In this document: in pieces, positions 5,591 through 25,131 of the stretch | How positions within the stretch are numbered: position 1 is the stretch's first letter | How the letters are laid out: every line of letters starts with the position of its first letter | NCBI RefSeq assembly: GCF_022701215.1 | Contig: NZ_CP089976.1 | Span: 1,950,001-1,982,000, forward strand | Origin: Moraxella nasovis | Lineage (GTDB): Bacteria; Pseudomonadota; Gammaproteobacteria; Pseudomonadales; Moraxellaceae | Direction of reading: 5' to 3' | DNA length: 32,000 bases | Position numbers and translations under genes: made by a program | Notes under the pieces: model-generated | Seen by the model: the letters and a program-made list of their open reading frames with translations, nothing else | The model's database searches: none | Told to the model about the DNA's origin: nothing

Positions 5591-5683
5591 AATACACTCA
5601 AGCTTAATGTGGTTATTTTATTGTACTCGTTTTGTCAAAAAACCACAAGAAGCAGCCAAAGACTTTTATCGCACATAAACTTT

Positions 5684-5711: not shown

Positions 5712-5840
5712 AGGCGAGCATAGTATAAAATCGTGACAAGGCAGTAAGATTTTATACACAAGCGTTACTTTTTTAACAGTCAAATAACATAATTTACCCG
5801 CATAGGATATACGGTTGATGGTTATTTGCAAGGAGCTTGT

Positions 5841-7289: not shown

Positions 7290-7301
7290 TTTTAACGTTA
7301 A

Positions 7302-10856: not shown

Positions 10857-11321
10857 ATGGCGAAACTTACGCCAAAACAAGAACAATTTTGCCAAAAATA
10901 CATAGAGCTGGGCAATGCGTCTGAAGCCTATCGCCAAAGCTACAATGCTAAAAATATGAAAGATGAAACGGTTAACCGCAACGCAAAAGCCTTATTAGAC
11001 AACAACAAGATTACAACAAGATTAAACGAACTTCGCCAAGCCCACGCCAACCGCCATGATGTGACGATTGATGAGATGTTATCAGCTTATGATGAAGCAT
11101 ATCAAATCGCCAAACTGAACGAGAACCCAACGGCGATGATTAGTGCCATTAATGCCAAAGTTAAGGTCTTAGGCATGGATAGGCAGTCAAAATCAGAGAT
11201 TAGGATTAAAGAGTTAGAAGCCCAATTAAAACAGCTTGAAATTGACCGCCTAAAAGCTCAGATGATAGACACTACAGGCAATGAAATTCAAATTAACGTG
11301 GTAAGGGTTAAAAATGAATGA
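10857..11321 (+). CDS. Terminase small subunit
   Basis: MAKLTPKQEQFCQKYIELGNASEAYRQSY…NAKALL.NNKI is the typical Terminase_2-type N-terminal HTH. It overlaps the TerL start by 4 nt. Confidence 0.85.
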   Translation: MAKLTPKQEQFCQKYIELGNASEAYRQSYNAKNMKDETVNRNAKALLDNNKITTRLNELRQAHANRHDVTIDEMLSAYDEAYQIAKLNENPTAMISAINAKVKVLGMDRQSKSEIRIKELEAQLKQLEIDRLKAQMIDTTGNEIQINVVRVKNE

Positions 11322-12502: not shown

Positions 12503-12795
12503 GTACAAAAGCACGCCGTTATCAAGATGGTATTACCAACGTAACCAAACGCCATGCTAATGCCATTGTAAGAACTATTGTACAACATGAAGCGTCACAA
12601 GCTAGGGGAGAACTTGCCAAACAGCTAGGCATTGATGAGATTAAAGTAGTAGCAACCTTAGATGGTCGCACAAGTAGCATTTGCCGTAGCCTTGATGGGC
12701 AAATCTTACCTTTATCACAAAAACCGCCTTATCATGTTAATTGCCGTACAAGCTACATTTTATGGCATGGCAAAGATGTAAAAACTCGTGCAAGT
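12445..12795 (+). pseudogene. Start-less internal fragment of a MuF/SPP1-gp7-type head morphogenesis protein, in frame with ORF 12796-13830
   Basis: Frame 1 is open from 12445 with no ATG, GTG or TTG. It reads …GTKARRYQDGITNVTKRHANAIVRTIVQHEASQARGE…VVATLDGRTSSICRSLDGQILPLSQKPPYHVNCRTS…, the conserved ATLDxRTxxxCxxLDG…PPxHxNCR core of the Phage_Mu_F domain. Confidence 0.7.
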
Positions 12796-13830
12796 ATGAA
12801 CGGAGTAGTTAAAAACCAAACCTATTATGAATGGCTTGCCACGCAAGATGATAAGTTTCAAGATTTTGTATTAGGTAAAGAGCGTGCTAAGTTATTTCGT
12901 GATGGCGGTTTATCACCCACAGAATTTAGCGATTTACAGCTGGATAAAAACTTTAAGCCTAGAACGCTTGATGAGATTAGGGCAATAGAGCCTAAGGGGT
13001 TTGAAGGGGTGTTTGGTGATGTGTTACAATCATCAAAAATAGATGAGAGTGCCATAATGCGAACTGATTGGGGTGATTTTCCTAATGCGTTAATTGCTCA
13101 CACCAAAGATACCATCACCACGCATAAATACTACCAAAAAGCCAAGGCGGGTGATGCACAAAGTGCGTTTTTATTGGTTGATGAGTTTTTGAGTGATGAC
13201 TTTGTCAAGGAAATGGGTCAATCCATACGTCATTATAAGGATGTGCATATTGTGCCAGTTCATGCCGAAGAACAACAAGGGCGTAATAAGATCCCTATGG
13301 CGTACGCATTGGCGTTGTCAGAAATACTAGGTGTTAAGATGGACTTGGGGATTGTACAAGCAGACAGGGCGTATCGTACGTCATCTGATGGGGTTGGACG
13401 GCTACTAAAGCGTGTGAATTTTGACGGTGATGTGGTGGCAGGTCGCCATTATGTGATTGTTGATGATGTCATCACACAAGGCGGTACTTTGGCAGATTTA
13501 CACAGTTTTATTGAAAATAAAGGCGGCAGTGTGATTTTGGCAAGTACCTTGAATGGTAAGCCAAATTCTGCTAAACTACCCATAACAAAAGCTACGCTTG
13601 GGCAATTCGCAAACAAGCTGGCAAAGAACTTGAACACTGGTGGCAGGAGCAATTTGGTTATGACTTCTCAAAATTCACAGAATCTGAAGCAAGATACCTT
13701 GCCAAACAAATCCACAGGTACGGCATTGACAGCGTCCGAGATACGCTCTTTACGTCAAGACTTAAAAGAGGCTTATGAACAAGGCAAGGGTTTTTTCAAG
13801 GCTAGGCGATTGCAGACCTCTCACTATTAG
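12796..13830 (+). CDS. MuF C-terminal linker fused to a type-I phosphoribosyltransferase-like domain. The 3' end is probably corrupted.
   Basis: GRHYVIVDDVITQGGTLADL is a classic PRPP-binding loop (hydrophobic4-DD-x-x-T-x-G-x-T). It is preceded by VHIVPVHAEEQQGRNKIPMAYALALS. After about 13600 the given frame becomes low-complexity, while frame 0 reads a plausible AIRKQAGKELEHWWQEQFGYDFSKFTESEARYLAKQIHRYGIDSVRDTL. Confidence 0.6.
   Translation: MNGVVKNQTYYEWLATQDDKFQDFVLGKERAKLFRDGGLSPTEFSDLQLDKNFKPRTLDEIRAIEPKGFEGVFGDVLQSSKIDESAIMRTDWGDFPNALIAHTKDTITTHKYYQKAKAGDAQSAFLLVDEFLSDDFVKEMGQSIRHYKDVHIVPVHAEEQQGRNKIPMAYALALSEILGVKMDLGIVQADRAYRTSSDGVGRLLKRVNFDGDVVAGRHYVIVDDVITQGGTLADLHSFIENKGGSVILASTLNGKPNSAKLPITKATLGQFANKLAKNLNTGGRSNLVMTSQNSQNLKQDTLPNKSTGTALTASEIRSLRQDLKEAYEQGKGFFKARRLQTSHY
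12941..13005 (+). repeat. 65-nt homology block, copy 1 (linker LDKNFKPRTLDEIRAIEPKGFE)
   Basis: tggataaaaactttaagcctagaacgcttgatgagattagggcaatagagcctaaggggtttgaa differs at only 3 positions from 13936-14000. Two of the 3 differences are synonymous. Confidence 0.9.
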
Positions 13831-13904
13831 AGACAAAATCCTTGCGTCAAGACCTTAAAGATGCCTATCATCAGATAATGAAAATGGATCAAAAATGATA
13901 ATCA

Positions 13905-13933
13905 AACACCGTTCTAAATGAGCGGTGTTTTTT
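13905..13933 (+). terminator. Rho-independent terminator after cassette 1
   Basis: AACACCG-ttctaaatgag-CGGTGTT plus a T-run. It is nearly the same element as 14631-14658, and both are followed by ATTGGATAA. Confidence 0.7.
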
Positions 13934-13934
13934 A

Positions 13935-14480
13935 TTGGATAAAAACTTTAAACCTAGAACACTTGATGAGATTAAGGCAATAGAGCCTAAGGGGTTTGAA
14001 AGGGCGTTTAAAAATCCCTTACCGATTGATGATGGTAGCTTAAAACAAAATATTGAACGTCTATTACCAAAGGTGAAGAACCTAGATAGAAATAGTTCAA
14101 TGGCGTTTAGAAAACAACACGCCATAGGGCAAAAATGGACAGTAGCAACCATCAGTGAGAAAGCACAAAAACAGTTAGGTGCAAAAACAAAAGACGTTTG
14201 GCTATCTGATGATACCTTAATCAAAATGATTATCCATCACCCAGAACAGGCGGATTTACCACTATTTTTATCGGTGCAGGATATTTTAGATAATGCGATT
14301 ACAGTTATTCAAGAAGATGATTATAGAGCAAGTTTTTTTAAACGTGGCGATGGTATTTATCAAGCAACCCTAAAAGCCACGCAAGACAGACAAGAGATTT
14401 ATTTGTTGACGGTTTTTAAGATGAGTGAGAAAGAATTTGAGAAGACTAAGAAAAGAAAGGCAAATAAGATAATAAAATAG
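13935..14480 (+). CDS. Orphan MuF C-terminal cassette with no ATG or RBS. The domain resembles the MuF_C / phage BECR-like (PBECR) alpha+beta domains.
   Basis: It opens with the repeated linker (L)DKNFKPRTLDEIKAIEPKGFE. Then …DVWLSDDTLIKMIIHHPEQADLPLFLSVQDILDNAITVIQEDD.RASFFKRGDGIYQATLKAT.DRQEIYLLTVFKMS… resembles domains found at the ends of MuF or polyvalent phage proteins (from memory). The only possible start is TTG inside the terminator tail. Confidence 0.55.
   Translation: MDKNFKPRTLDEIKAIEPKGFERAFKNPLPIDDGSLKQNIERLLPKVKNLDRNSSMAFRKQHAIGQKWTVATISEKAQKQLGAKTKDVWLSDDTLIKMIIHHPEQADLPLFLSVQDILDNAITVIQEDDYRASFFKRGDGIYQATLKATQDRQEIYLLTVFKMSEKEFEKTKKRKANKIIK
13936..14000 (+). repeat. 65-nt homology block, copy 2 (5' end of the orphan cassette)
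   Basis: See 12941-13005. It begins directly after the terminator T-run. Confidence 0.9.
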
Positions 14481-14578
14481 CTACTGGTGGGACTACCACT
14501 CCCCACACCCTCCCTCTTACCCCACACGCTAGCGTGCTGTGGTTACGGCAGGTAGAATTCACCGTGTCGCAGTAGCTA
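14478..14578. other. C-rich structured element: a 9-bp closing inverted repeat enclosing a G-quadruplex/i-motif consensus and a 12-nt palindrome
   Basis: TAGCTACTG (14478-14486) pairs with CAGTAGCTA (14570-14578). C-tracts lie at 14501-04, 14508-10, 14512-14 and 14520-23, so the minus strand reads GGGG-TAAGA-GGG-A-GGG-TGT-GGGG. The palindrome CACGCTAGCGTG is at 14524-14535. Confidence 0.4.
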
Positions 14579-14630
14579 TATTGTTATTATACAGCTATTT
14601 ACTTAATTTATCAAATGGCTATAAGAATAT

Positions 14631-14658
14631 AACACCGTCTTTTGGCGGTGTTTTTTTT
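14631..14658 (+). terminator. Rho-independent terminator after cassette 2, a duplicate of 13905-13933
   Basis: AACACCG-tcttttgg-CGGTG plus T8, followed by ATTGGATAA (14659-14667). Confidence 0.7.
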
Positions 14659-14670
14659 ATTGGATAACCT

Positions 14671-15054
14671 ATGAACACCACAACCATACAAAAACTAATC
14701 GCCAAGCATATCGCCACTATGCCAAATTATAATCCTAAGGCATGGGTTACAGGCAATCATAACTATGTACCTACCGATATATGGCATAGAGTAAGCCTAC
14801 AAAGTGCAGGGGCTATCATGAGCGGTATGGCAGATAAGCCTATGAGCCGTGAGATAGGGGCGGTGGTGGTGCAAGTATTTACAAGGCAAAATATTGGCGA
14901 AAAAAGAGCAGTAGAACAAGCAGACACCATCGCTAATCATTTGGCGTATTATACTGATGAAAACTTAGAATTATTAACGCCATCGGTGGTTATAGTCGGT
15001 AGTGATAACGACTGGTGGCAAGTTAATGTGAGAGTGCCTTATCGGTATAAGTAA
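14671..15054 (+). CDS. Tail terminator / tail completion protein (DUF4128-like, gpU functional analog)
   Basis: A 127-aa ORF immediately upstream of the tail tube gene. Its end …WWQVNVRVPYRYK and overall pattern resemble the DUF4128 tail-terminator family (from memory). Confidence 0.55.
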   Translation: MNTTTIQKLIAKHIATMPNYNPKAWVTGNHNYVPTDIWHRVSLQSAGAIMSGMADKPMSREIGAVVVQVFTRQNIGEKRAVEQADTIANHLAYYTDENLELLTPSVVIVGSDNDWWQVNVRVPYRYK

Positions 15055-15086
15055 GCAAATTTTTGATTAAAATTCTAGGGTTTAGT

Positions 15087-15209
15087 ATGCAATCTATCAA
15101 TTTAAAGCCTGACAATTTTATTAAATTCTTTTGGCACATTGTGCTAATGATAGCGTTTTTAAAAGTAGTATGGGTAATTACCAACATTGCATTAGTGCAT
15201 TTTGGTTAA
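15087..15209 (+). CDS. Possible 40-aa single-TM peptide (MQSINLKPDNFIKFFWHIVLMIAFLKVVWVITNIALVHFG)
   Basis: An ATG ORF below the track's length cutoff, with a hydrophobic core and its own terminator at 15208-15243. The RBS is weak (tagggtttagtATG). Confidence 0.3.
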   Translation: MQSINLKPDNFIKFFWHIVLMIAFLKVVWVITNIALVHFG

Positions 15210-15243
15210 GCCCTTAGCAATCGCCCATTAGGGCTTTTTTTTT
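15208..15243 (+). terminator. Rho-independent terminator
   Basis: AAGCCCT…AGGGCTT stem followed by T9. Confidence 0.6.
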
Positions 15244-15254
15244 GGAGTAAATTT

Positions 15255-16175
15255 ATGTCAAGCGGTGCAAAAGTAGTAACAGCGTATGCCAAGCAGACCA
15301 CAAAAACCGTGCCAACTACAGGCTGGAAAATCTTGCCAAATATCAAAAACGGCTTATCGGTTAATAACACACTAACTGATAGCGAAATGTTATCAGGTTC
15401 ACGGATTAAATCGGCAGGCATGGTAACAGGCGGTGAAGTAGCAGGCGAGATAGAAACCGAATTACAATATGGCGTCTATGATGAGCTATTAGAAGCGGCA
15501 TTTTTTAATGAATGGCAAGCAGACGCAAGAAATACTAAGTTAAAAAAGCTTAGCATTGGTGATACTAAAAAGATGTTTGCCATATCAAAAGACTTTAGCG
15601 ATATTAACGTAAACCACGTCTTTACAGGCTGTGTTATCAATAGCCTAAAAATTGACATTACGACTGATAATCTTATCAAAGCTAATTTTGGGGTGATGGG
15701 GCAAGGCTATCAGCATAGCAAAGAGACATCATTTGCTAAAACCCCTGCTACTGCTACTGTAGGCAAACCTGCAAGCGGTTTATCCATCGGAACGATTAAA
15801 AAAGATGGTGCTGATATTGGTATTTGTGTTGAAAGCTTTAGTTTTGAGATTGACAATGGGGCAGAAGTACAAAAGTGCTTAGGCGATAATATCTATGGCG
15901 GTAATATCGTCGCTATGCTTGCTAATATTTCAGGCAGTTTAACGCTTGCCTATGGCGTAAAATCGCATGATTTAATCGTCAATCAATTAACAGGGGCAAC
16001 CGTATCGCTAGAAATCCCCATTTCATTTAATGAAACAGATAAATACATTATCAAAATACCAAAAATGCAAGTATCAGGGGAAATTCCAAGCCCATCAGGC
16101 ACTGACCTTGTCACCATTGATGTTAGCTATACCGTCGTTGAAGAAAGCCCAATTATTGAAAAACACCAAGCATAA
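15255..16175 (+). CDS. Major tail tube protein (gpV analog)
   Basis: A 306-aa ORF with a GGAG RBS in the canonical position (terminator protein - tube - chaperones - tape measure). The composition is beta-rich and Gly/Ser/Thr-rich. Confidence 0.7.
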   Translation: MSSGAKVVTAYAKQTTKTVPTTGWKILPNIKNGLSVNNTLTDSEMLSGSRIKSAGMVTGGEVAGEIETELQYGVYDELLEAAFFNEWQADARNTKLKKLSIGDTKKMFAISKDFSDINVNHVFTGCVINSLKIDITTDNLIKANFGVMGQGYQHSKETSFAKTPATATVGKPASGLSIGTIKKDGADIGICVESFSFEIDNGAEVQKCLGDNIYGGNIVAMLANISGSLTLAYGVKSHDLIVNQLTGATVSLEIPISFNETDKYIIKIPKMQVSGEIPSPSGTDLVTIDVSYTVVEESPIIEKHQA

Positions 16176-16186
16176 GGAGAACACAC

Positions 16187-16654
16187 ATGGCATTTAGTTT
16201 AAAAGACTTAAAAAAACCAAATCAAGTTGTTGGCGAAGTAGTACGCACGATTAAGCACAAAAGCGGTTTACAGCTTGAGCTTGTTGTCAAACAAGACACC
16301 GCCTTTGAAAGGGCTTTATCTAAAGTACAAACCTTATTGAATGACACCAAGATTAAAAAAGATGATTTAAAGCGTGCTAACCAAACCGATATTACAACTA
16401 ATGAAGCTTTACTAATGGTTATCGGTGAATACAACATTAAATCATGGAATGTAGATGTAAACGGTGAGCCTTTAGAGCCTAGCGGTGATAACCTGCTTAT
16501 TGTCTTAGCAAATATCAGTGATGGCTTGCCTGAGCTTTTAAACACGCTATTTGACACCTTTACCGAGATGGGGCATGAATATAGTGAACAGGTGCAAGCT
16601 GTGAAAAAAAAGCCATCGAGTACTACAAATGGCAAAAAACAAAGTCAGAATTAA
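16187..16654 (+). CDS. Tail assembly chaperone (gpG analog)
   Basis: A 155-aa acidic ORF directly before the tape measure, with an AAGGAG RBS. It contains a slippery heptamer near its 3' end. Confidence 0.7.
   Translation: MAFSLKDLKKPNQVVGEVVRTIKHKSGLQLELVVKQDTAFERALSKVQTLLNDTKIKKDDLKRANQTDITTNEALLMVIGEYNIKSWNVDVNGEPLEPSGDNLLIVLANISDGLPELLNTLFDTFTEMGHEYSEQVQAVKKKPSSTTNGKKQSQN
16606..16612 (+). promoter_or_regulatory. -1 programmed ribosomal frameshift site A_AAA_AAG
   Basis: In the gpG-analog zero frame the codons are GTG AAA AAA AAG CCA, so the heptamer A AAA AAG is in the correct phase. The -1 frame is open from 16588 to 16905. Confidence 0.6.
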
Positions 16655-16906: not shown

Positions 16907-19900
16907 ATGTCAGATACACGCATGAGCATCACCATTGATGTGAAAAATGCAGACCAATTAACAAAACTGCAACAAGCATTAAAAGACGTTGATAAAACGA
17001 CGCATCAAGCAGGCAAAGGCATTGATGACGTTGCCAAACACTCAAAAGAGGCAAGTAAGCAAGCAGGTGGCTTATCAAAAGCCTATGGATTGTTAAAAAC
17101 AGCGGTGGTTGGCTATTTATCAATCGGTGTGGCAAGTAACATTACAAATACAGCTGACGCGATGACTACATTAACCAGTCAAATCCGTATTGCCACAAAT
17201 AGCACAGATGAATATAACAAAGCTTTTCAATCGGTGCGTGAAATTGCTAACGCTAACGGCACATCAATGCAAGCGGTGGGCGAGCTATACACAGCAAACA
17301 CAAGGGCGTTAAGCCAGCTTGGTAAAAGCCAAGATGAAGTGATACATTTTACCAAAAACTTAACGCTTGCTATGAGAGTAGGGGGCGGTTCGGCAGAAGG
17401 GCAAGCGGCAGCAATACGCCAGCTAGGGCAAGCCTTAGCAAGTGGGACATTGCGTGGTGATGAATTTAACTCGGTAGCTGAACAAGCACCTGAGATTATG
17501 AACATTTTAGCCAAGCATTTAAAAGTTACCACAGGCGAGCTAAAGGATTTGGCAAAAAAAGGTAAAATTACCGCTGATGTGCTTTATAACGCTATGGCAG
17601 GGGCAACAGACAACCTAAGCGAAAAGGCAGCTAAAATGCCTATGACCATCGCCCAAGCAAGGCAAGTGGTTGAAAATGAATGGGGGGTAATGGTTGAAAC
17701 TTTTGTCAATCAAACAGGCATTACAGATACTTTAGCTAAAATCGTTATATCAATTGCACAATTAATCCCTAAAATTACCGAAACAGTCAAAGAGTTTTTG
17801 GCTATGCCATCGGTGCTAACAGCCGTACAAACAGGTACACAGCTACTTAGCAACGCATGGGATTTATTAAAGCAAGCTTTTGATGTCATCATGCCTATTA
17901 TCGGTGATGTCGTCGCTAAAATCATTGAATTAGAGCCGTATTTAACGCCCATTGCAGCAGGGGTGGCAAGTGCAGCAGCTGCTTTTAAGGCGTGGAATTT
18001 CGCACTTGGTATTTATAACGGTATCGTGGCTTTATCAGCGTCTGTTACCACCGCCTTTGCAGGGGCATTAGCATTTATCACAAGCCCCATTGGGATAGCG
18101 GTGCTTGCTATCGGTGCATTGGTGGCAGCAGGTGTGGCACTGTATAAAAATTGGGACACTGTTGACGCTAAAGCAAAAGAGATTTGGGCAAGTATTGAGC
18201 AAGCGTTTGATAAAGCCAAAACCGCCATCAATGACAAGCTAACCCGTATCAAAACGTATTTTAGCGATACGTTTAATGCTTTGCCTAAGCCTGTGCAAAC
18301 TGCTTTGGGCGTGATAGGGCAAGTATTTAGCACACAGTTTAACGTGGTACTTGAGATAGTTAAAGGTACGTTTAAGCTTATCAATAACGCCTTCACCACC
18401 GCCTTTAATGTCATCAAAGCCTTAGTCAAAGGTGATATGGACGGTGTAAAAAAAGCAATCTTTGATGGCTTAAAAAACGCCTATGCCATCATCCAAACCA
18501 TGCTAGGTAGCATTGCAGCAGCGTTTTTGGGGCTAGGTAGTAAGCTACTACAAGCTGGGCGTGACGCTATCCAAGGCTTTATTAACGGCATAAAAGAAAA
18601 GTTTAATACAGCAATAAGCACGGCTAAAAACTTAGCAGATTCTGTCGTTACCAGCGTAAAATCTACACTTAATATTCGTTCACCGTCTCGTGTGATGAAA
18701 GAACTAGGCAAGCATACCGCTGATGGTTTTGCCTTAGGCATTCGTAATAATGCAAGTAAAGCTACTAAAGCCGCCCAAAAAATGGCAGAAGACGCCAAAA
18801 AAGCGGTGGCTGACGCGGTGGCTAGCATACAGCGTGAGATAACCTTATTTGGCAATGATAGCCGTGTTGACGCCCTACAATACGACATCAAAGCAGGTAA
18901 ATACGGCAATGCTGATACAACTAAGCTTAGTAAACTTACTCAAGAATACGAGCAGATACAAAAAAATGCCAAAGCTGATGAAAGACGCCAAAACGCCTTA
19001 AATCGTGTTATTGAGCTTGAAAATGCCATCAAAAAAGTTGGCATGGACAAATGGCAACTGTTGCAATTTGAATTAGATACCCTAGAAGAATACAAAGACG
19101 TATCAGATGAGATTAAGCAAAACATCATCAACACATCAAAAGCACTAGATGAGCATAAGCTTAATGATACGGTTAGCCAAGAAGTTGCCAAAATCAATAG
19201 CGAGCTTAGCAAAAACCAATATATCTTAGCGAATATCACAGATAAGTATGCAAGCTTAAAATGGGATAGTAAGCTTAAAGGCTATACTGATGCACAAGTA
19301 GATAGCATTGTTATGGCAACTAAGCAAGCGGACGCCTTTGCTGATTTTGTACAATCACAACAAGCCATTCAAGATGCATTAGCTAATAACACCAACGTTT
19401 ATCAAGGTACGATTGATAAGCTTAAAGGGGCGTTAGGTGCACCAAATAGCACAATAGGCGGTATTGCTAACATTGCTACAAGCGTCTTTGATAATTATAG
19501 CGTATCAAAACAGCTTGATGAAAAGCACCAAGCTGAGCTTGACAAAATCAAAGCACAAGAGGACGCTAAAACCATCACAGAATACGAAGCACAACAAGCA
19601 CGCCTAGAACAAATGCAGCAATACGAAATGGCGCGACAACAAATCAAAGAACGTAGCGAACAATCACTATTAGGCACGATAACAGGTGCTGCTAAGGCGA
19701 TGTTTGGCGAAGGGTCTCGTGCTTATAAAGCGTTATTTGCTTTTGAAAAAGCGATGGCGTTAAAGCGTATTTTGGTGGCAAACCAAACCACATTAGCACA
19801 AGCGTGGGCGTCTGCCCCATTTCCTGCTAACTTAGGGGCGGTCGCGGTCGCAGCGGCTAAAAGCGGAGCGTTGGTTGCGGCACTAAATGCCATATCAGCC

Positions 19901-20215
19901 CCAGTAGGTCAAGCCCATGATGGCATTATGTCTGTGCCTAAGTCTGGTACGTGGAATCTAGAAAAAGGCGAGCGAGTACTGCCTAAGCACACCGCCCAAA
20001 ATCTAGATGACAAGCTAAACCGTCTTGGCAATGGGCGTGGTGAAACCAAAATCATCATCAACAACTACACGAGCGAAAAGGCAAGCGTGGAACAACAGCC
20101 TAATGGGGATATCATGGTGCAAATTGGCAAGATGATTGACAGCAAGGTTGAAACAAAGGTTAATCAGCGTTTTATTCAAGCACGACGTCAAGGGGGATTA
20201 CTCTATGACAGATAA
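16907..20215 (+). CDS. Tail tape measure protein (gpH analog)
   Basis: 1102 aa, with the N-terminal TMP core (…RQLGQALASGTLRGDEFNSVAEQAPEIMNILAKHL.VTTGELK.LA.KGKITADVL…), a central hydrophobic Ala/Gly-rich segment and long coiled coils. Confidence 0.95.
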   Translation: MSDTRMSITIDVKNADQLTKLQQALKDVDKTTHQAGKGIDDVAKHSKEASKQAGGLSKAYGLLKTAVVGYLSIGVASNITNTADAMTTLTSQIRIATNSTDEYNKAFQSVREIANANGTSMQAVGELYTANTRALSQLGKSQDEVIHFTKNLTLAMRVGGGSAEGQAAAIRQLGQALASGTLRGDEFNSVAEQAPEIMNILAKHLKVTTGELKDLAKKGKITADVLYNAMAGATDNLSEKAAKMPMTIAQARQVVENEWGVMVETFVNQTGITDTLAKIVISIAQLIPKITETVKEFLAMPSVLTAVQTGTQLLSNAWDLLKQAFDVIMPIIGDVVAKIIELEPYLTPIAAGVASAAAAFKAWNFALGIYNGIVALSASVTTAFAGALAFITSPIGIAVLAIGALVAAGVALYKNWDTVDAKAKEIWASIEQAFDKAKTAINDKLTRIKTYFSDTFNALPKPVQTALGVIGQVFSTQFNVVLEIVKGTFKLINNAFTTAFNVIKALVKGDMDGVKKAIFDGLKNAYAIIQTMLGSIAAAFLGLGSKLLQAGRDAIQGFINGIKEKFNTAISTAKNLADSVVTSVKSTLNIRSPSRVMKELGKHTADGFALGIRNNASKATKAAQKMAEDAKKAVADAVASIQREITLFGNDSRVDALQYDIKAGKYGNADTTKLSKLTQEYEQIQKNAKADERRQNALNRVIELENAIKKVGMDKWQLLQFELDTLEEYKDVSDEIKQNIINTSKALDEHKLNDTVSQEVAKINSELSKNQYILANITDKYASLKWDSKLKGYTDAQVDSIVMATKQADAFADFVQSQQAIQDALANNTNVYQGTIDKLKGALGAPNSTIGGIANIATSVFDNYSVSKQLDEKHQAELDKIKAQEDAKTITEYEAQQARLEQMQQYEMARQQIKERSEQSLLGTITGAAKAMFGEGSRAYKALFAFEKAMALKRILVANQTTLAQAWASAPFPANLGAVAVAAAKSGALVAALNAISAPVGQAHDGIMSVPKSGTWNLEKGERVLPKHTAQNLDDKLNRLGNGRGETKIIINNYTSEKASVEQQPNGDIMVQIGKMIDSKVETKVNQRFIQARRQGGLLYDR

Positions 20216-21029: not shown

Positions 21030-21056
21030 ATAAATAAGTAAATCACAAAATAAATG

Positions 21057-21095
21057 ACCCTTATAAGGATTTTGGTAATCCCTATAAGGGTTTTT
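21057..21095 (+). terminator. Rho-independent terminator
   Basis: ACCCTTATA (21057-21065) pairs with TATAAGGGT (21083-21091), followed by a T-run. Confidence 0.6.
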
Positions 21096-21122
21096 ATGGT
21101 TGGATTTATGCTAGGGGGATAC

Positions 21123-21794
21123 ATGAGTTTTAATGTACAAATAGAACAGCCAAGCGTGCAGGGCTTGATTATTTTGTATGAATTGGATGCCCGCCATCTA
21201 GGGGCGGACATTTACCGCTTTCATGGACACAATGACGGCGAAATTATTTGGCAGGGCAACACTTACACACCTATCGCCATCTCTGCTGTTGGGCTTGAAA
21301 TGCGGTCAGACGGTAAGGCTTCCATACCAAGTTTAACCCTTGGTAACGATATTGCAGGTGTGCCACAGGCTTTGCGTGCGTTATGCTTGCAGTTTGGCGA
21401 TTTTGCAGGGGCGAAGTTAAAAGTTATTCACACCCTTGCCAAATATCTAGACAGCACTGACGAACAAAACTACAAAGTACAACATTGGTACATCGAACAA
21501 AAGACCGCCGAGACGAACGCCACCACGACATTTGAGCTTGCCAACCCCATTGATGTTGAAGGCTTACGCATACCCGTCCGCCAAATCACAAACTATTGCG
21601 ATTGTGCGGTGCGTGGGCGGTATCGTCATGAAGAATGCGGATATACAGGCACGGCACGCTTTACCATTGATGGCAAGCCGACCGATGACCCAGAACTTGA
21701 TAAATGCGGTGGCAGACTGTCGGATTGTATGCTTAGATTTGGGAGAGATAGCCCCTTGCCGTTTGGGGGATTTCCAGCAAGTTCACTTGTTTGA
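21123..21794 (+). CDS. Minor tail protein L (gpL-like, Fe-S cysteine cluster)
   Basis: …ILYELD……YRFH………I.WQG..Y.P..I…, and C-terminal cysteines CDCAVRGRYRHEECGY…KCGGRLSDC as in lambda gpL. The ATG at 21123 has an AGGGGG RBS. Confidence 0.9.
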   Translation: MSFNVQIEQPSVQGLIILYELDARHLGADIYRFHGHNDGEIIWQGNTYTPIAISAVGLEMRSDGKASIPSLTLGNDIAGVPQALRALCLQFGDFAGAKLKVIHTLAKYLDSTDEQNYKVQHWYIEQKTAETNATTTFELANPIDVEGLRIPVRQITNYCDCAVRGRYRHEECGYTGTARFTIDGKPTDDPELDKCGGRLSDCMLRFGRDSPLPFGGFPASSLV

Positions 21795-21795: not shown

Positions 21796-21824
21796 TTGTC
21801 AAGTGATTTTAGTTGTGATAAAAT
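21796..21824 (+). promoter_or_regulatory. Promoter of the TPR-like/HEPN cassette
   Basis: TTGTCA (21796-21801), a 17-nt spacer whose last bases give an extended -10 TG-a, then TAAAAT (21819-21824). It starts 2 nt after the gpL stop. Confidence 0.5.
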
Positions 21825-21848
21825 GAATTGCCTTAACAGGAGCTTGTT

Positions 21849-22631
21849 ATGATACCCAAAACCAAAACACATGAAGCCTATGAGTATCTAAAAAATTATC
21901 ACGGATTAACCAATCCTAATAGTTTTAAATATTTGTCATGGCTAAATAGTGCTGAAAAGTTAATTAAAACAGACCCAGTAGATGGATATGTTTTACAAGG
22001 TTTTGCACATATGGCTTTGGGCGATATACAATCAGCAGTTCAAAGCATGAAAAAGGCATATTTATTAAATAATATAGTTGCTACTTATAATTATGCAACA
22101 CTATTGTATAAATCTGGCGAATTTAGTCAAAGCCATCAAATGTGCTTAAATGTACTCAATAAAGACCCTTATGATAGCAATATTATTGAAGTTGTCCTTA
22201 GTAATGCAAGCAGAAGTTTAGATTTAAATATACTTAATGAAGCATTTGAATTATTTCAAGGTGGAAATTTATATATTGACAATCAAAAAATTAAGGCTAT
22301 TGATTTCATTAAAAATACAATATCAAAACTTAAAATAACAAATATTACACAAGATAATTTTGTATATATTTATAGTTTACTTAATAGATTTTTATCAAAG
22401 CACTATATTGGTGACTATTATGTTGATGTGGATGTTAGCCAAACAGAAATTGGTAATATACTTAATATAGATATTTATTTAAATAATGTGGGAACTGATG
22501 ATTGTTTAGACTTAGATGATAAATTCTTAGATGTATTGATTGATGATAGTCAGCTTAATTTTGATGATTATAAAAATATCATCGTGCATTTCATTCCTGC
22601 CAAATATGACGATTTGGAGTGTATGCAATGA
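21849..22631 (+). CDS. Hypothetical 260-aa protein with an N-terminal TPR-like helical repeat region and an acidic Asp/Asn-rich C-terminal half
   Basis: It has a strong RBS (caGGAGc). Residues ~42-110 (DGYVLQGFAHMALGDIQSAVQSMKKAYLLNN…ATYNYATLLYKSGEFSQSHQMCLNVLNKDPYD) look like two to three TPR units. No nucleotidyltransferase GS…DxD motif is present. Confidence 0.55.
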   Translation: MIPKTKTHEAYEYLKNYHGLTNPNSFKYLSWLNSAEKLIKTDPVDGYVLQGFAHMALGDIQSAVQSMKKAYLLNNIVATYNYATLLYKSGEFSQSHQMCLNVLNKDPYDSNIIEVVLSNASRSLDLNILNEAFELFQGGNLYIDNQKIKAIDFIKNTISKLKITNITQDNFVYIYSLLNRFLSKHYIGDYYVDVDVSQTEIGNILNIDIYLNNVGTDDCLDLDDKFLDVLIDDSQLNFDDYKNIIVHFIPAKYDDLECMQ

Positions 22632-23014
22632 CGGTGAATATTAATGATTTACATAAATGTATTGATGAGATGTTTATTAATATTAATGAACAATCATCAG
22701 AAAGTCAGATGAGGGCGTATATCAACCGTAGTTATTATGCTGTTTTTCATGAGTTAAAAATGGCTATGGAAAGTGTAGGGATTGATATTAATCAATACAA
22801 AACAGGCACTCATAATAATCTATGCTTGATACTTGATGATATGAAAAATCAAAATAAATCCATACAAAAACTCGCTTTGCAGTTTAGAGATTTTTTAACC
22901 CAACGCCACAATGCAGATTATGATTTGGATAAAAATATAACTTGGCATCATGTAAAAGTCATCATGCAATATAAACAGAATTTACCTTCATTGATTAAAG
23001 AACATATTAAATAA
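22628..23014 (+). CDS. Small HEPN-domain protein (UPF0332-like)
   Basis: INRSYYAVFHELKMAMESVGI…GTHNNL…FLTQRHNADYDLD matches the RaYYAmFHaa…H…R..aDY layout of UPF0332-type HEPN proteins (from memory). The ATG at 22628 overlaps the upstream stop as ATGA, with GGAG 8 nt upstream. The track start 22619 is a GTG. Confidence 0.6.
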   Translation: MTVNINDLHKCIDEMFININEQSSESQMRAYINRSYYAVFHELKMAMESVGIDINQYKTGTHNNLCLILDDMKNQNKSIQKLALQFRDFLTQRHNADYDLDKNITWHHVKVIMQYKQNLPSLIKEHIK

Positions 23015-23026
23015 TCCAAAAATTCA

Positions 23027-23059
23027 AAAACCGCTCTGTTACAAATAGAGCGGTTTTTT
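23027..23059 (+). terminator. Rho-independent terminator of the cassette
   Basis: aaaaCCGCTCT-gttacaaat-AGAGCGGtttttt. Confidence 0.8.
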
Positions 23060-23080
23060 ATTACCCAAAAAGTGATAACC

Positions 23081-23863
23081 ATGAAACTCACCAAACCCCT
23101 AAAACACGCCATCATCGCCCACGCCAAAGATGAATACCCAAAAGAATGTTGTGGGCTGATTATTGATGGACATTATTATCCGTGCGACAACGTGGCAACA
23201 AATCCACACGATAGCTTTGAGATTGACAGCGAAACTTTTATCAATCTATTAGCTTTGGCGGACGATTTTCAAGCCATCGTCCACAGCCACCCTGATGGCG
23301 ATGTACTGCCTAGCGAGCTTGACCGTGTGCAGATGGCAGTACATGACACCGACTGGCTAATTTGTGCGATTAGTTCTGACAACCAGTTTCATATCAAAAG
23401 CCATAAACCAAAAGCCTACACCGCCCCCTTATTAGGGCGTGAGTATCATCACGGCGTGCAAGATTGCTATAGCCTTGTGCGTGATTATTATGAGCGTGAA
23501 TTAGGTATAGAGCTACCAGACTTTGACCGCACAGACGCATGGTGGGAAAATCAAGACCATAAACCGCTTTATCAAGATAACTTTAAAAAAGCAGGTTTTG
23601 TACAAATTGAGATAGACGAGCTACAAAAGCATGACGTGATACTTTGCTATGTCGGACGTACGCACCACATTAACCACGCTTTAATCTATCTTGATGATGG
23701 CAAGCTTATGAGCGAAAAAACACCGCCTACGCCCATGACGGGCTTAGTACTACATCACCCCTACGGCACGCTGTCGGTGCGTGAGCTGTATGGCGAGACA
23801 TGGCGTAAGCGGACGGCACTCGTGATTAGACATAAGCAACTGATGAATGCACAAAAGGCTTGA
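23081..23863 (+). CDS. Tail tip assembly protein K (JAB/MPN plus NlpC/P60 domains)
   Basis: The JAB motif is …EYPKECCGLI…IVHSHPDG….PSE.D. The NlpC/P60 part is …GVQDCYSLVRDYY…H.NHALIYLDDG…, as in lambda gpK. Confidence 0.9.
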   Translation: MKLTKPLKHAIIAHAKDEYPKECCGLIIDGHYYPCDNVATNPHDSFEIDSETFINLLALADDFQAIVHSHPDGDVLPSELDRVQMAVHDTDWLICAISSDNQFHIKSHKPKAYTAPLLGREYHHGVQDCYSLVRDYYERELGIELPDFDRTDAWWENQDHKPLYQDNFKKAGFVQIEIDELQKHDVILCYVGRTHHINHALIYLDDGKLMSEKTPPTPMTGLVLHHPYGTLSVRELYGETWRKRTALVIRHKQLMNAQKA

Positions 23864-24125
23864 TGAGTGAATAATCTATTTTAGGATTATGCTCGGCTTG
23901 CCATAGGTCATAATCTTTTTGTAAATCCAAAAATAGACTTGGATTTGTTCCCAAAAGATGGCTTAGGCGAACGCTCATCTCGGCGGTGATGCCTTGCTTG
24001 CCATTTAAAATACGGCTTAAATTGACACGAGTAACGCCAAGACGTTCGGCAACTTCGGTTACGCTATAACCGTCTATATATTCACGCAAAACAAGCCCTG
24101 CGTGTGGGGGGTTGTGCATTCTCAT
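23826..24125 (-). CDS. higA: HigA antitoxin (XRE-type HTH)
   Basis: …HPGLVLREYIDG…SVTEVAERLGVTRVNLSRILNGKQGITAEMSVRLSHLLGT.P.…LQ..YDLW is the canonical HigA. Its 3' end overlaps the gpK 3' end by 38 nt (convergent). Confidence 0.9.
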   Translation of the reverse strand: MRMHNPPHAGLVLREYIDGYSVTEVAERLGVTRVNLSRILNGKQGITAEMSVRLSHLLGTNPSLFLDLQKDYDLWQAEHNPKIDYSLIKPFVHSSVAYV

Positions 24126-24135
24126 AAAAGTCTCC

Positions 24136-24417
24136 TTAGTGATAATCTTGGTAATCTACAATTTCGGCATTACCATCGTCATTAAAGCGAAAAGTTAAAC
24201 GCCAGTTGCCATTGACCATTACCGACCAATGACCTGCCAAATTGCCTTTTAAAGGGTGCAATCGCCAACTGGGAGCGTCCATATCGTTAGGGCTTTTGGC
24301 TCGGTTAAGCGTACTAAGTTGTATGGCAAGTTTGGTTTTATGCTTGGCTTGAATGCCTTTGGTACTACCTGTGGTAAAAAAGTTTTCTAAGCCTTTGTGA
24401 GCAAACGACACAATCAT
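24136..24417 (-). CDS. higB: HigB toxin (RelE/ParE superfamily, plasmid-maintenance killer type)
   Basis: MIVSFAHKGLENFFTTGSTKGIQAKH..KL…L..L…….DM..PSWRLHPLKG.LAGHWSV.VNGNWRLTFRF….A..VDYQDYH. The start is set at the internal Met (24417) rather than the track's 24489. Confidence 0.85.
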   Translation of the reverse strand: MIVSFAHKGLENFFTTGSTKGIQAKHKTKLAIQLSTLNRAKSPNDMDAPSWRLHPLKGNLAGHWSVMVNGNWRLTFRFNDDGNAEIVDYQDYH

Positions 24418-24435
24418 AAACATTATCCATATAGC

Positions 24436-24474
24436 GTATAGATACACTATACAATAAATTTTAGGTACTGTCAA
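24436..24474 (-). promoter_or_regulatory. higBA promoter with an overlapping palindromic operator
   Basis: The minus strand reads TTGACA (24474-24469), a 17-nt spacer, then TATAGT (24451-24446). The inverted repeat GTATAG-ataca-CTATAC (24436-24452) overlaps the -10. The -35 abuts the gpI ATG (24475) on the other strand. Confidence 0.55.
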
Positions 24475-25131
24475 ATGAAAACCATCCACTTTTACGGCAT
24501 TTTAGCCAAAAAATTCGGTAAAACCTTTGAGCTAGATGTTAAGACCGCGTTTGAGGCAACCCACGCCCTAGCGTGTCAAATACCTGCCTTTAAAGCATTC
24601 ATGGAACAAAGTGGCGTAAATTTAGCCGTATTTTTAGGCGATAAGGTGTTAAAAAACAACATCAATGAAAATGAAATCAACAACCAAACCGCCAAATCTG
24701 ACATTCATATCGTGCCACAAATTGAAGGGGCTGGCGGTAAGGTTGGCGGTATTTTACAAACGGTGGCAGGGATTGCGATGATTGGTGTTGGCGTATTTTC
24801 TACGACTATTACGGCAGGGGCGTCATCTGCCTTAATCGGTGTTGGTGCAGGTCTTTTGATGGGCGGTGTCTCAAGCCTACTTATGCCCACGCCAAAGCAT
24901 GAACCTGATGACCCTGACGGTAATAAAGCCAATAACGGCTTTGGGGCAGCGGTTACCACAGTAGCACAAGGCAACCCTGTACCCATCCTTTATGGCGAGC
25001 GTGAGATTGGTGGATTTGTAATATCAGCTTCGGTATATGCCCAAGATAAGATGATACAAGGGGTCGTTATGACAACGTTACACAATGCAGCTACTGACCT
25101 TATTAAAAAAGCATTTAAAGGTAAAGGGTAA
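24475..25131 (+). CDS. Tail assembly protein I (gpI-like)
   Basis: MKTIHFYG.LAKKFG..FELDV.T..EA..AL..Q.P.F…, a central Gly/Ala-rich hydrophobic stretch, and …N.…G.PVPILYGE…GG.VIS as in Lambda_tail_I. Confidence 0.85.
   Translation: MKTIHFYGILAKKFGKTFELDVKTAFEATHALACQIPAFKAFMEQSGVNLAVFLGDKVLKNNINENEINNQTAKSDIHIVPQIEGAGGKVGGILQTVAGIAMIGVGVFSTTITAGASSALIGVGAGLLMGGVSSLLMPTPKHEPDDPDGNKANNGFGAAVTTVAQGNPVPILYGEREIGGFVISASVYAQDKMIQGVVMTTLHNAATDLIKKAFKGKG

What the first reader, a model, noticed from the sequence alone, without database searches (positions are those of the whole stretch)
21796..23059. Self-contained AT-rich two-gene cassette (TPR-like protein + UPF0332-type HEPN protein) wedged between tail genes L and K: candidate undescribed defence or toxin module
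Seen: the gpL homolog ends at 21794 and the gpK homolog starts at 23081. In lambda-type tail clusters these genes abut. Between them lies a 1.2-kb block with its own near-consensus promoter (TTGTCA-17-TGaTAAAAT). It holds two ORFs coupled by an ATGA stop/start overlap (22628-22631) and ends in a strong terminator (23027-23059). Base composition drops sharply: 60-nt lines I counted inside the block were about 20-35% GC, against about 57% at the 3' end of gpL. ORF2 (128 aa) shows RSYYAVFHE…THNN…QRHNADYD, the layout of small UPF0332-type HEPN proteins. Established knowledge: such HEPN proteins normally pair with a minimal nucleotidyltransferase antitoxin, and HEPN domains are recurrent RNase effectors of TA, abortive-infection and CRISPR-accessory systems. 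ORF1 (260 aa) has no GS…DxD NTase motif. It combines TPR-like repeats with an acidic Asp/Asn-rich C-terminal half. Inference: this is a HEPN effector with a non-canonical partner, which could act as a sensor or antitoxin, carried as a prophage moron. I do not recognise this pairing as a described system.
Basis: partly seen in the sequence, partly recalled or inferred. Interest (0 to 1): 0.82.

Follow-up and report, generated by a model that had tools for sequence, protein, structure and literature searches.

The report
Mobile HEPN toxin module, new partner
A self-contained two-gene cassette wedged between two tail genes of a Moraxella prophage encodes a HEPN-fold (RNase-type) protein and an uncharacterised TPR-containing partner; the same pair recurs in other phages, on plasmids and as chromosomal islets, so it is most likely an undescribed toxin-antitoxin or phage-defence module.

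Summary
Window 21796-23062 is an AT-rich unit (GC 0.19-0.31, against about 0.45-0.5 in the flanks) with its own promoter, two overlapping genes and a terminator, lying between tail genes L and K of a Moraxella nasovis prophage.

ORF2 (128 aa) is a HEPN-T domain of the AF0298/UPF0332 type. It has R93-x3-D97-Y98 and no His in the Rx4-6H motif, but an alternative invariant His62. ORF1 (260 aa) has an N-terminal TPR array and an acidic alpha/beta C-terminal domain, with no family assignment in any library. It sits where the minimal nucleotidyltransferase sits in canonical MNT-HEPN pairs.

The pair is a conserved mobile unit. It occurs:
- in Moraxella prophages, always between L and K;
- downstream of cI in Pseudomonas prophages;
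- at two other positions in viral contigs;
- on a 10-kb Acinetobacter plasmid;
- as low-GC two-gene insertions between housekeeping genes.

In 27 of 45 metagenome loci found through the HEPN gene, an ORF1-family gene lies directly upstream.

The best reading is a type-II-like HEPN toxin with a protein antitoxin or sensor, plausibly giving lysogens abortive-infection defence. Toxicity, RNase activity and defence are untested. I found no description of this pairing. I rate it a new variant of a known kind, of moderate to high interest.

The parts
21796..21824 (+). Cassette promoter: -35 TTGTCA, 17-nt spacer, extended -10 TGaTAAAAT
   Evidence: 10/12 match, TG before the -10. An equivalent element sits upstream of all six other Moraxella copies examined, including the non-prophage island L015.
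21838..21842 (+). Shine-Dalgarno AGGAG for ORF1, 6 nt before the ATG
   Evidence: Read directly from the sequence.
21849..22631 (+). ORF1, 260 aa. N-terminal conserved segment (MxPKTKT.EA.E.L..Y.GLTNP), TPR-like helical array (about aa 26-135), two long helices (141-185) and an acidic beta-beta-alpha-beta C-terminal domain (190-250). Predicted partner, antitoxin or sensor of ORF2.
   Evidence: ORF and family scans. PDB profile hits to TPR proteins, E 3e-8. AF2 model pLDDT 92.3. Foldseek TPR matches, prob 1.0. Two full-length siphovirus matches in BFVD. 17 relatives below 1e-30 and about 40 full-length relatives of 250-298 aa among 1.84 billion representatives.
22616..22631 (+). Translational coupling region: GGAG (22616-22619) and the ATGA stop/start overlap (22628-22631)
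   Evidence: Overlap or abutment of the two genes is kept in all 14 pairs measured.
22628..23014 (+). ORF2, 128 aa. HEPN-T (AF0298/UPF0332-like) domain protein and predicted RNase-type toxin. Invariant R29, R34-S-Y-Y-A38, H62, R93, D97, Y98.
   Evidence: AF2 pLDDT 91.7. Foldseek top hits 2hsb, 7bxo/6m6u/5yep HepT, 1ylm, 2q00. Profile links to PF05168/UPF0332 proteins. Invariant columns shared with MNT-linked relatives. phrog_5176 at 1e-16 and PADLOC HEPN_IX at 1e-3.
23026..23062 (+). Intrinsic terminator: 15-bp stem, 3-nt loop, T-run
   Evidence: -19 kcal/mol, z -8.3. Hairpin plus T-run is kept, with different stem sequences, in the other Moraxella copies.
21054..21794 (+). Left flank: tail protein L homolog. 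The true start is probably downstream of 21054, because the Pfam match begins at aa 49.
   Evidence: PF05100, 6e-47.
23081..23863 (+). Right flank: tail protein K homolog (JAB/MPN + NlpC/P60)

Best explanation
The block is an autonomous, horizontally mobile two-gene module carried as a moron in the tail operon of a Moraxella nasovis prophage.

ORF2 is a HEPN-T domain protein of the AF0298/UPF0332 lineage. That lineage normally serves as the toxin of MNT-HEPN toxin-antitoxin pairs. In this clade the upstream MNT gene has been replaced by ORF1, a 260-aa protein made of a TPR array and an acidic alpha/beta C-terminal domain.

Proposed mechanism, all of it inferred:
1. Both proteins are made from the cassette's own promoter in the lysogen, by coupled translation.
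2. ORF1 binds the ORF2 dimer and holds it inactive. This is type-II-like sequestration, possibly with the acidic C-terminal domain occluding the RNA-binding cleft. It is not nucleotidylation.
3. When ORF1 is lost, or when its TPR surface is occupied by a protein of a superinfecting phage, ORF2 is freed. It then cleaves RNA through the R93/H62 alternative HEPN site and stops growth.
4. The outcome is abortive infection, or post-segregational killing if the element is lost.

Shown here: the anatomy of the transcription unit, the HEPN fold and conserved residues, the TPR fold, the absence of an NTase, the strict pairing, and mobility across phages, plasmids and chromosomes. Inferred: RNase activity, toxicity, neutralisation by ORF1, the trigger, and the defence phenotype.
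For: Transcription unit:
- Promoter, two ribosome-binding sites, gene overlap, terminator and GC trough.
- Promoter and terminator are conserved across diverged Moraxella copies.

ORF2 is a HEPN protein:
- Model pLDDT 91.7. The top Foldseek hits are HEPN proteins and HepT toxins, prob 0.95-1.0, TM up to 0.63.
- The profile reaches PF05168/UPF0332 proteins at 1e-5 to 1e-6.
- R29, R34, Y36, Y37, A38, H62, R93, D97 and Y98 are invariant, including in relatives that still have a canonical GS..DxD MNT upstream.
- Anantharaman et al. 2013 (PMC3710099) describe exactly this variant: AF0298-like HEPN-T and AbiV lack the motif His but keep an alternative His from the insert between helices 2 and 3. H62 lies at the end of the 50-60 loop.
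- AbiV has since been shown to be an RNase (bioRxiv 10.1101/2024.05.05.592566).

ORF1 is a binder and not an enzyme:
- TPR by profile and by fold.
- No NTase signal.
- The C-terminal 100 aa are acidic in all 13 lineages measured.

The two genes form a functional unit:
- They are always adjacent and in the same order. They overlap by 1-17 nt in 12 of 14 pairs; the other two sit 2 and 13 nt apart under the start codons chosen.
- Mantel r = 0.92 between the two distance matrices, 0 of 5000 permutations reaching it.
- 27 of 45 metagenome loci recovered through the HEPN gene have an ORF1-family gene directly upstream.
- The Pseudomonas partners are homologous to ORF1: hhalign Prob 96.5, E 9e-10, 242 columns.

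TA-like and defence-like ecology:
- In Pseudomonas prophages the pair lies downstream of cI on the same strand. Tha and rexAB occupy that position (general knowledge).
- It is on a 10-kb MOBQ plasmid.
- It occurs as low-GC two-gene insertions between housekeeping genes, and once next to an integrase.
- The neighbouring K-I and M-L junctions of these Moraxella prophages hold HigBA, HicAB, BrnTA or an RHH gene.
Against: - There is no experimental evidence of any kind.
- The canonical Rx4-6H catalytic motif is absent (R93-H-N-A-D-Y-D-L-D). To my knowledge RNase activity has not been shown for AF0298-like HEPN-T proteins, so ORF2 could be a non-catalytic binding module.
- ORF2 gets no Pfam hit at E <= 1. 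Its PADLOC hit is marginal and partial.
- The HEPN proteins are near-neutral in several lineages (pI 5.8-7.1), not uniformly basic.
- No ORF1-ORF2 complex was modelled.
- A strong terminator inside a late tail operon also fits a module whose only role is selfish maintenance.
- Nothing identifies a phage trigger.
- The Mantel correlation partly reflects shared phylogeny.
Confidence: 0.55

Rival explanations
1. This is a plain addiction-type toxin-antitoxin module. ORF2 is the toxin and ORF1 a labile protein antitoxin. The pair only stabilises whatever replicon carries it, with no phage sensing and no defence role. The TPR array serves only for ORF2 binding or protease targeting.
For: The pair is on a small mobilizable plasmid. 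It occurs as isolated two-gene insertions between housekeeping genes. Its neighbours in the same prophage are classical TA pairs: HigBA, HicAB, BrnTA. The antitoxin-first, overlapping gene order matches classical TA modules.
Against: A 260-aa partner with a repeat-type protein-binding array is far larger than a simple antitoxin needs to be. The pair repeatedly occupies moron positions in at least four unrelated phage layouts, including the lysogenically expressed cI operon. The TA and defence roles are not mutually exclusive.
Confidence: 0.2
2. ORF2 is a catalytically inert HEPN-fold adaptor. The pair is non-toxic and does something else for the phage or the lysogen, such as counter-defence (sequestering a host immune component or signal), regulation of RNA or translation, or chaperoning.
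For: The Rx4-6H His is missing. Anantharaman et al. note that HEPN domains without catalytic residues act as binding or regulatory modules. Several ORF2 homologs are not basic. TPR proteins are generic scaffolds.
Against: The complete residue set shared with MNT-linked HEPN-T toxins, including R93, H62 and Y98, is invariant across about 25% sequence identity. That argues for a retained active site. The stand-alone chromosomal and plasmid copies are hard to explain by a phage-specific counter-defence role.
Confidence: 0.15
3. The two proteins are ordinary tail-assembly or tail-accessory factors of this phage group that happen to lie between L and K.
For: The position inside the tail operon. The pair sits between L and K in all Moraxella prophages that carry it.
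Against: Related Mcat phages have unrelated small ORFs in that gap. The pair has its own promoter and terminator and an aberrant GC. It also occurs in a Moraxella chromosome with no tail genes nearby, next to cI, next to the terminase, on a plasmid and between metabolic genes.
Confidence: 0.02

Closest known systems
MNT-HEPN toxin-antitoxin systems (HepT/MntA of Shewanella oneidensis SO_3166/SO_3165; HEPN-T/UPF0332 pairs with minimal nucleotidyltransferases)
   Same: ORF2 has the same fold and belongs to the same HEPN-T lineage, with structural matches to 5yep, 7bxo, 6m6u and 2hsb. Gene order is the same, with the partner upstream and overlapping. The conserved Arg and Tyr of the C-terminal motif are kept. 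Distant relatives of ORF2 still have a GS..DxD MNT upstream.
   Different: The partner is not a nucleotidyltransferase, so neutralisation by AMPylation is impossible. ORF1 is a 260-aa TPR + acidic alpha/beta protein. The motif is R-x3-D-Y with an alternative His, not Rx4H.
AbiV of Lactococcus (HEPN RNase abortive-infection system)
   Same: Anantharaman et al. 2013 group AbiV with AF0298-like HEPN-T as the families that lack the motif His and use an alternative upstream His. AbiV is a demonstrated anti-phage RNase.
   Different: ORF2 has no hit to the PADLOC AbiV models. The AbiV antitoxin is an RNA (abiV2, type III), not a TPR protein. AbiV is about 200 aa.
Tha (tail-activated HEPN anti-phage system of S. 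aureus prophages; PMC11087260)
   Same: Both are prophage-borne HEPN proteins expressed in the lysogen. Tha is transcribed from the cI promoter, which matches the position of the Pseudomonas copies of this module. Tha acts by abortive infection when it senses a phage structural protein.
   Different: Tha is a single 301-aa protein with an uncharacterised N-terminal region and a canonical RX4H motif. Its inhibitor Ith is a small antisense-encoded protein. There is no sequence relationship to ORF1 or ORF2.
HEPN families noted in operons with TPR or Sel1 proteins (LA2681 family; AbiU2) in Anantharaman et al. 2013
   Same: Both involve a genomic association of a HEPN protein with a repeat-type (TPR or Sel1) partner or fusion.
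   Different: Those families keep Rx4-6H and are separate HEPN clades. They remain uncharacterised, and no C-terminal domain like that of ORF1 is described. Their relationship to ORF1 was not tested because no sequences were at hand.
Lambda rexAB and other lysogen-expressed exclusion morons
   Same: Both are two-gene cassettes expressed from the prophage, next to cI in the Pseudomonas versions, and thought to abort superinfection (general knowledge).
   Different: The proteins and mechanism are unrelated. RexB is an ion channel.

Membership tests
HEPN superfamily (fold level) | All-alpha up-down helical bundle matching solved HEPN domains | tested here: met
   AF2 model pLDDT 91.7 with five helices. 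Among the Foldseek PDB hits, ranks 1-4 and most of the top 20 are HEPN proteins: 2hsb, HepT 7bxo/6m6u/6m6w/5yep, 1ylm, 1wwp, 2q00, 8xeh. Prob is 0.9-1.0 and TM 0.5-0.66, but E-values are only 0.03-0.5.
HEPN superfamily (catalytic) | Rx4-6H motif at the end of helix 3 | tested here: not met
   R93 is invariant, but the following residues are H-N-A-D-Y-D-L-D with no His at +5 to +7. H94 is Q or V in Pseudomonas and other lineages.
AF0298-like HEPN-T variant (Anantharaman et al. 2013) | The basic residue of the motif is kept, D replaces H, and an alternative conserved His lies in the insert between helices 2 and 3 | tested here: met
   R93, D97 and H62 are invariant in 16 sequences, including MNT-linked ones. 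H62 follows the 50-60 loop between H25-49 and H61-75. The best structural hit is AF_0298 itself. The definition comes from PMC3710099.
Pfam PF05168 (HEPN) / UPF0332 | Score above the Pfam gathering threshold | tested here: not met
   The window protein has no PF05168 hit at E <= 1. The family profile does reach PF05168 and 'UPF0332 family' proteins at 1e-5 to 1e-6, and the relative L028:4001-4435 passes the threshold at 22.5 against 22 bits. ORF2 is therefore a divergent sister group, not a member by the curated cut-off.
MNT-HEPN TA system | Adjacent minimal nucleotidyltransferase with the GSx(9-13)DxD motif | tested here: not met
   ORF1 has no NTase hit. No conserved DxD is present in the alignment. 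hhalign of the ORF1 C-terminal domain against MNTs gives Prob 0.14.
TPR proteins (ORF1, N-terminal half) | Tandem helix-turn-helix repeats matching TPR profiles and structures | tested here: met
   Pfam TPR hits fall below the gathering threshold. The family profile hits the OGT TPR domain and consensus TPRs at 3e-8 to 1e-4. Foldseek matches TPR structures at prob 1.0.
Type II toxin-antitoxin module (generic) | Two small co-transcribed, translationally coupled genes; acidic partner first; patchy and mobile distribution | tested here: met
   Plasmid, prophage and islet contexts.
Type II toxin-antitoxin module (generic) | Toxin inhibits growth, and the cognate antitoxin binds and neutralises it | not testable with these tools
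   This needs expression and rescue experiments. Complex modelling was not available.
Known anti-phage defence systems (PADLOC v2) | Match to a system-specific protein model | tested here: not met
   ORF1 has no hit. ORF2 has only a partial HEPN_IX match, E 1.1e-3, aa 22-65.

The most novel reading that the evidence does not exclude
The ORF1/ORF2 pair founds a widespread, so far unnamed family of two-component abortive-infection systems. In it a TPR + acidic-domain protein acts as a pattern-recognition sensor that holds an alternative-active-site HEPN-T RNase inactive and releases it on binding a phage protein. Phages, plasmids and chromosomes of Gammaproteobacteria, and possibly other Proteobacteria, trade it as a self-contained cassette. 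It would show how the MNT-HEPN toxin was rewired from enzymatic (AMPylation) control to sensor control.
Probability: 0.35. Interest if true: 0.75.

Novelty: new variant of a known kind. Interest (0 to 1): 0.62.

Why it matters
If the model is right, three things follow.

- It adds a compact two-gene defence or TA system that current annotation tools miss: Pfam, NCBIfam and PADLOC all return nothing usable.
- The system is present in prophages of Pseudomonas aeruginosa and of Moraxella species. In those hosts, prophage-encoded exclusion affects phage therapy and strain competition.
- It gives a natural experiment in toxin control. The same HEPN-T toxin lineage is governed by a nucleotidyltransferase in some relatives and by a TPR protein here.

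It would also offer the first functional test of the alternative-His active site proposed in 2013 for AF0298-like HEPN domains. Finally, it marks the tail-gene junctions L-K, K-I and M-L of Moraxella siphophages as cargo hotspots worth mining.

Tried and rejected
- **Degenerate MNT idea.** The C-terminal domain of ORF1 (helix, beta, turn, beta, helix, beta) might have been an inactivated nucleotidyltransferase fold. hhalign of the C-terminal-domain alignment against three MNTs taken from relatives gave Prob 0.14 and E 0.42. Pfam gave no NTase hit on isolated C-terminal domains. There is no support for the idea.
- **Direct comparison of partners.** hhalign of Moraxella ORF1 (15 sequences) against the Pseudomonas partners was not significant (Prob 0.7), and pairwise BLASTP gave E 0.12. 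Homology appeared only after the profile was enlarged with the 1.84-billion-protein search.
- **Azospirillaceae partner (L019).** It matches the family only over the TPR part (Prob 73, 46 columns). I did not count it as a member.
- **Sequence search of solved structures with the ORF2 profile.** It found nothing.
- **Tail-accessory reading.** Rejected on distribution.
- **Literature.** Searches for a described TPR + HEPN two-gene system returned only generic or unrelated papers.
Full report
**1. What is in the window**

Window 21796-23062 holds a complete small transcription unit. It lies between the tail gene L homolog (Phage_tail_L, E 6e-47, ending at 21794) and the K homolog (Prok-JAB + NlpC/P60, starting at 23081). 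Its parts are:
- a TTGTCA-17-TAAAAT promoter with a TG extended -10 at 21796-21824, scoring 10/12;
- AGGAG 6 nt before the ORF1 start;
- ORF1 at 21849-22631 (260 aa);
- GGAG and an ATGA stop/start overlap;
- ORF2 at 22628-23014 (128 aa);
- a 15-bp hairpin plus U-run at 23026-23062, folding at -19 kcal/mol, z = -8.3, with 0 of 200 shuffles as stable.

GC falls to 0.19-0.31 inside the unit, against 0.50-0.535 at the 3' end of gpL. In 500-nt windows the stretch at 22001-22500 (GC 0.256) is the lowest in the 32 kb; 22501-23000 (0.292) is second-lowest, marginally below the chromosomal stretch at 1-1500 (0.296-0.318). Both proteins are 100% identical to hypothetical proteins LU293_09505 and LU293_09510 of Moraxella nasovis.

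**2. ORF2**

No Pfam or NCBIfam model matches ORF2. It matches phrog_5176 (function unknown, 1e-16) and, marginally and only in part, PADLOC HEPN_IX.

An AlphaFold2 model built on 12 homologs is confident (pLDDT 91.7) and has five helices. Foldseek against the PDB returns HEPN proteins almost exclusively at the top: AF_0298 (2hsb), the HepT toxins of MNT-HEPN systems (7bxo, 6m6u, 6m6w, 5yep), YutE, 1wwp, 2q00 and 8xeh. Probabilities are 0.9-1.0 and TM up to 0.66, though E-values are weak. A profile that includes a Pseudomonas phage homolog reaches proteins carrying PF05168 or named 'UPF0332 family' at 1e-5 to 1e-6.

I aligned ORF2 with relatives down to about 20% identity, including three that still have a canonical GS..DxD nucleotidyltransferase upstream. 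The invariant residues are R29, R34, Y36, Y37, A38, H62, R93, D97 and Y98.

The canonical Rx4-6H motif is not present, because D97 stands where the His would be. Anantharaman et al. (PMC3710099) describe exactly this situation for the AF0298-like HEPN-T family and for AbiV. In those families the motif His is absent and an alternative, strongly conserved His comes from the insert between helices 2 and 3. H62 occupies that position. AbiV has since been reported to be an RNase. To my knowledge no such demonstration exists for AF0298-like proteins, so catalysis by ORF2 is an inference.

**3. ORF1**

Pfam gives only sub-threshold TPR hits. The family profile hits the OGT TPR domain and consensus TPR proteins at 3e-8 to 1e-4.

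The AF2 model (pLDDT 92.3) shows three regions:
- a helical repeat array, aa 26-135;
- two long helices, aa 141-185;
- a beta-beta-alpha-beta domain, aa 190-250.

Foldseek matches TPR structures for the N-terminal half. Against BFVD it finds two full-length siphovirus proteins of unknown function at E 5e-7 and 2e-6. ORF1 has no NTase motif, no NTase family hit, and no profile similarity of the C-terminal domain to MNTs. The C-terminal 100 residues are acidic in all 13 lineages measured, with net charge -3 to -13.

**4. The pair is a conserved, mobile unit**

- *Moraxella prophages.* In M. nonliquefaciens, M. canis, M. sp. ZJ142 and related metagenome contigs, an ORF1 homolog (249-268 aa) and an ORF2 homolog (127-134 aa) are always adjacent and always between L and K. 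Related M. catarrhalis Mcat phages have the same L and K genes but unrelated small ORFs in the gap. The pair is therefore dispensable cargo at a variable junction.
- *Moraxella sp. Pampa.* The cassette sits in an AT-rich islet between a dus-like gene and glmM, with no tail genes nearby. Its DNA is 79% identical to the prophage copy.
- *Promoter and terminator.* All six other Moraxella copies examined keep a promoter-like TTGnnn-17/18-TGnTAnAAT element. All keep a hairpin plus T-run terminator whose stem sequence differs from copy to copy.
- *Pseudomonas.* A 264-265-aa gene overlaps a 123-aa ORF2 homolog, which has pairwise BLASTP E 2e-15 to ORF2. In four different prophages, including phage YMC11/02/R656 and P. 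aeruginosa genomes, the pair lies downstream of the cI-type repressor on the same strand.
- *Homology of the Pseudomonas partner.* It is not detectably similar to ORF1 by BLASTP or by a small profile. I searched the ORF1 profile against 1.84 billion representative proteins. That gave 17 hits below 1e-30 and about 40 full-length relatives of 250-298 aa. Two of them, P0189 and P0111, are also recognised by the Pseudomonas profile. With this enlarged family, hhalign to the Pseudomonas partners gives Prob 96.5, E 9.4e-10, over 242 collinear columns.
- *Other contexts.* One IMG/VR contig has the pair between VRR-NUC/regulatory genes and HNH-terminase (L031). Another has it between the large terminase and a Mu-type portal (L032). 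It is on the 10-kb MOBQ plasmid p5AsACE of Acinetobacter schindleri.
- *Metagenome scan.* A scan seeded only with the HEPN motif returned 45 loci. In 27 of them an ORF1-family gene lies directly upstream. The remainder have shorter upstream genes, some with the MNT motif.
- *Chromosomal insertions.* In several longer contigs the pair is a low-GC insertion between housekeeping genes. Examples are LysR/methyltransferase next to BipA, and an aminotransferase next to a 2-hydroxyacid dehydrogenase. One copy is next to an integrase.
- *Co-divergence.* Across 14 pairs the two proteins co-diverge, with Mantel r = 0.92 and 0 of 5000 permutations reaching it. The genes overlap by 1-17 nt in 12 of the 14; the other two lie 2 and 13 nt apart under the start codons chosen.

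**5. Interpretation**

The architecture matches a toxin-antitoxin-type selfish module. The partner gene comes first, the two genes are coupled, the unit has its own promoter and terminator, its composition is foreign, and it is scattered over prophages, plasmids and chromosomes.

The toxin candidate is ORF2. Its lineage provides the toxin in MNT-HEPN pairs, and it retains every residue those relatives conserve. ORF1 occupies the antitoxin position but cannot nucleotidylate. It is built from a protein-binding repeat array and an acidic domain. Neutralisation by binding is therefore the simplest model.

The prophage positions suggest a role in excluding other phages. The pair occupies moron slots in at least four unrelated phage layouts, including the cI operon in Pseudomonas. 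Other lysogen-expressed exclusion systems sit in that operon, among them the HEPN RNase Tha, which is triggered by minor tail proteins. A TPR sensor that releases the toxin on binding a phage protein would fit. This last step is conjecture.

The same Moraxella prophages carry HigBA (here at 23826-24489), HicAB, BrnTA or an RHH gene at the neighbouring K-I and M-L junctions. The tail-gene junctions are therefore general cargo sites for TA-type modules.

**6. Rivals**

- A pure addiction module (0.2) is supported by the plasmid copy and the isolated chromosomal copies. It explains the large repeat-containing partner and the repeated phage positions less well.
- An inert HEPN adaptor with a non-toxic role (0.15) cannot be excluded, because the canonical motif is missing. 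The invariance of R93, H62, D97 and Y98 argues against it.
- A tail-accessory role (0.02) is excluded by the distribution.

**7. Novelty**

HEPN toxins, MNT-HEPN systems, AbiV, Tha and the 2013 note that some other HEPN families sit in operons with TPR or Sel1 proteins are all known. The specific pairing seen here is an AF0298-like HEPN-T with a roughly 260-aa TPR + acidic-domain partner. It is absent from PADLOC v2, Pfam and NCBIfam. I did not find it in the literature I could search.

I therefore class it as a new variant of a known kind. It is real, widespread and testable, but it has no functional data.

Confidence by claim:
- autonomous mobile cassette, about 0.95;
- HEPN fold, about 0.95;
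- the two genes form one functional unit, about 0.9;
- toxin-antitoxin relationship, about 0.55;
- anti-phage defence, about 0.4.

Noticed in passing
window 23826-24489 (minus strand): A HigA-like HTH antitoxin (23826-24125) and a HigB-like RelE-family toxin (24136-24489; PF05015, 4e-22) are inserted between tail genes K and I. They have the best promoter match of the region (TTGACA-17-TATAGT, 11/12) at 24474-24446. This is a second TA-type moron, about 0.8 kb from the cassette.
   Followed up: partly
L003, L007, L008/L009 (related Moraxella prophages): The K-I junction carries different TA cargo in different prophages: BrnT/BrnA in L003, an RHH gene in L007, HicA/HicB in L008/9. The M-L region of L007 carries HicAB. 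The tail-gene junctions of these siphophages behave as cargo hotspots.
   Followed up: partly
window 10122-10532 (minus strand): A HicB-like antitoxin (PF15919, 9e-46) lies just upstream of the terminase genes. The small adjacent HicA partner was not looked for.
   Followed up: no
window 10857-16654: Only about 4 kb separate the large terminase (11318-12502, 394 aa) from the tape-measure gene (16907-20215). That stretch includes a 344-aa protein with a phosphoribosyltransferase domain (12796-13830). No portal or capsid gene was identified. The prophage may be a remnant, or its head module may be replaced or atypical.
   Followed up: no
window 1-7300: These are chromosomal, non-phage genes: an MFS transporter (in an AT-rich stretch, GC about 0.30), an RDD/GYF protein, UDG, a MafB19-like deaminase, NAPRTase and a Na/sulfate symporter. 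The prophage boundary lies somewhere around 7.3-10 kb.
   Followed up: no
window 21057-21091: A 15-bp-stem palindrome (ACCCTTATAGGGATT..AATCCTTATAAGGGT), scored as terminator-like on the minus strand, overlaps the mechanically called start of gpL. The real gpL start is probably further downstream, because the Pfam match begins at aa 49.
   Followed up: no
L028-L030 (metagenome contigs), 3456-4435: A PF05168 HEPN protein (144 aa, just above the Pfam threshold) is preceded by an overlapping 182-aa gene with no Pfam hit and no MNT motif. This may be another non-MNT partner for a HEPN-T toxin.
   Followed up: partly
L019 4039-5327 (Azospirillaceae bacterium): A HEPN-T gene is overlapped by an upstream gene of about 263-305 aa. 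That gene matches the ORF1 family only over its TPR part (hhalign Prob 73). It is either a very divergent member or an independent TPR partner.
   Followed up: partly
plasmid records NZ_CP137518.1 and NZ_CP137513.1 (P. aeruginosa, 62.5 kb): Records deposited as plasmids carry the Pseudomonas version of ORF2. The match has the same identity, coverage and bit score as the match to phage YMC11/02/R656 (60.9 kb). They may be circular or episomal forms of that phage type.
   Followed up: no
ORF1 family N-terminus (window 21849-21920): The first 25 or so residues (MxPKTKT.EA.E.L..Y.GLTNP) are the most conserved part of ORF1 in the close family. A QPK/PKxK start recurs even in distant members and in the Pseudomonas partners. 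Its role (toxin contact, degron or other) is unknown.
   Followed up: no
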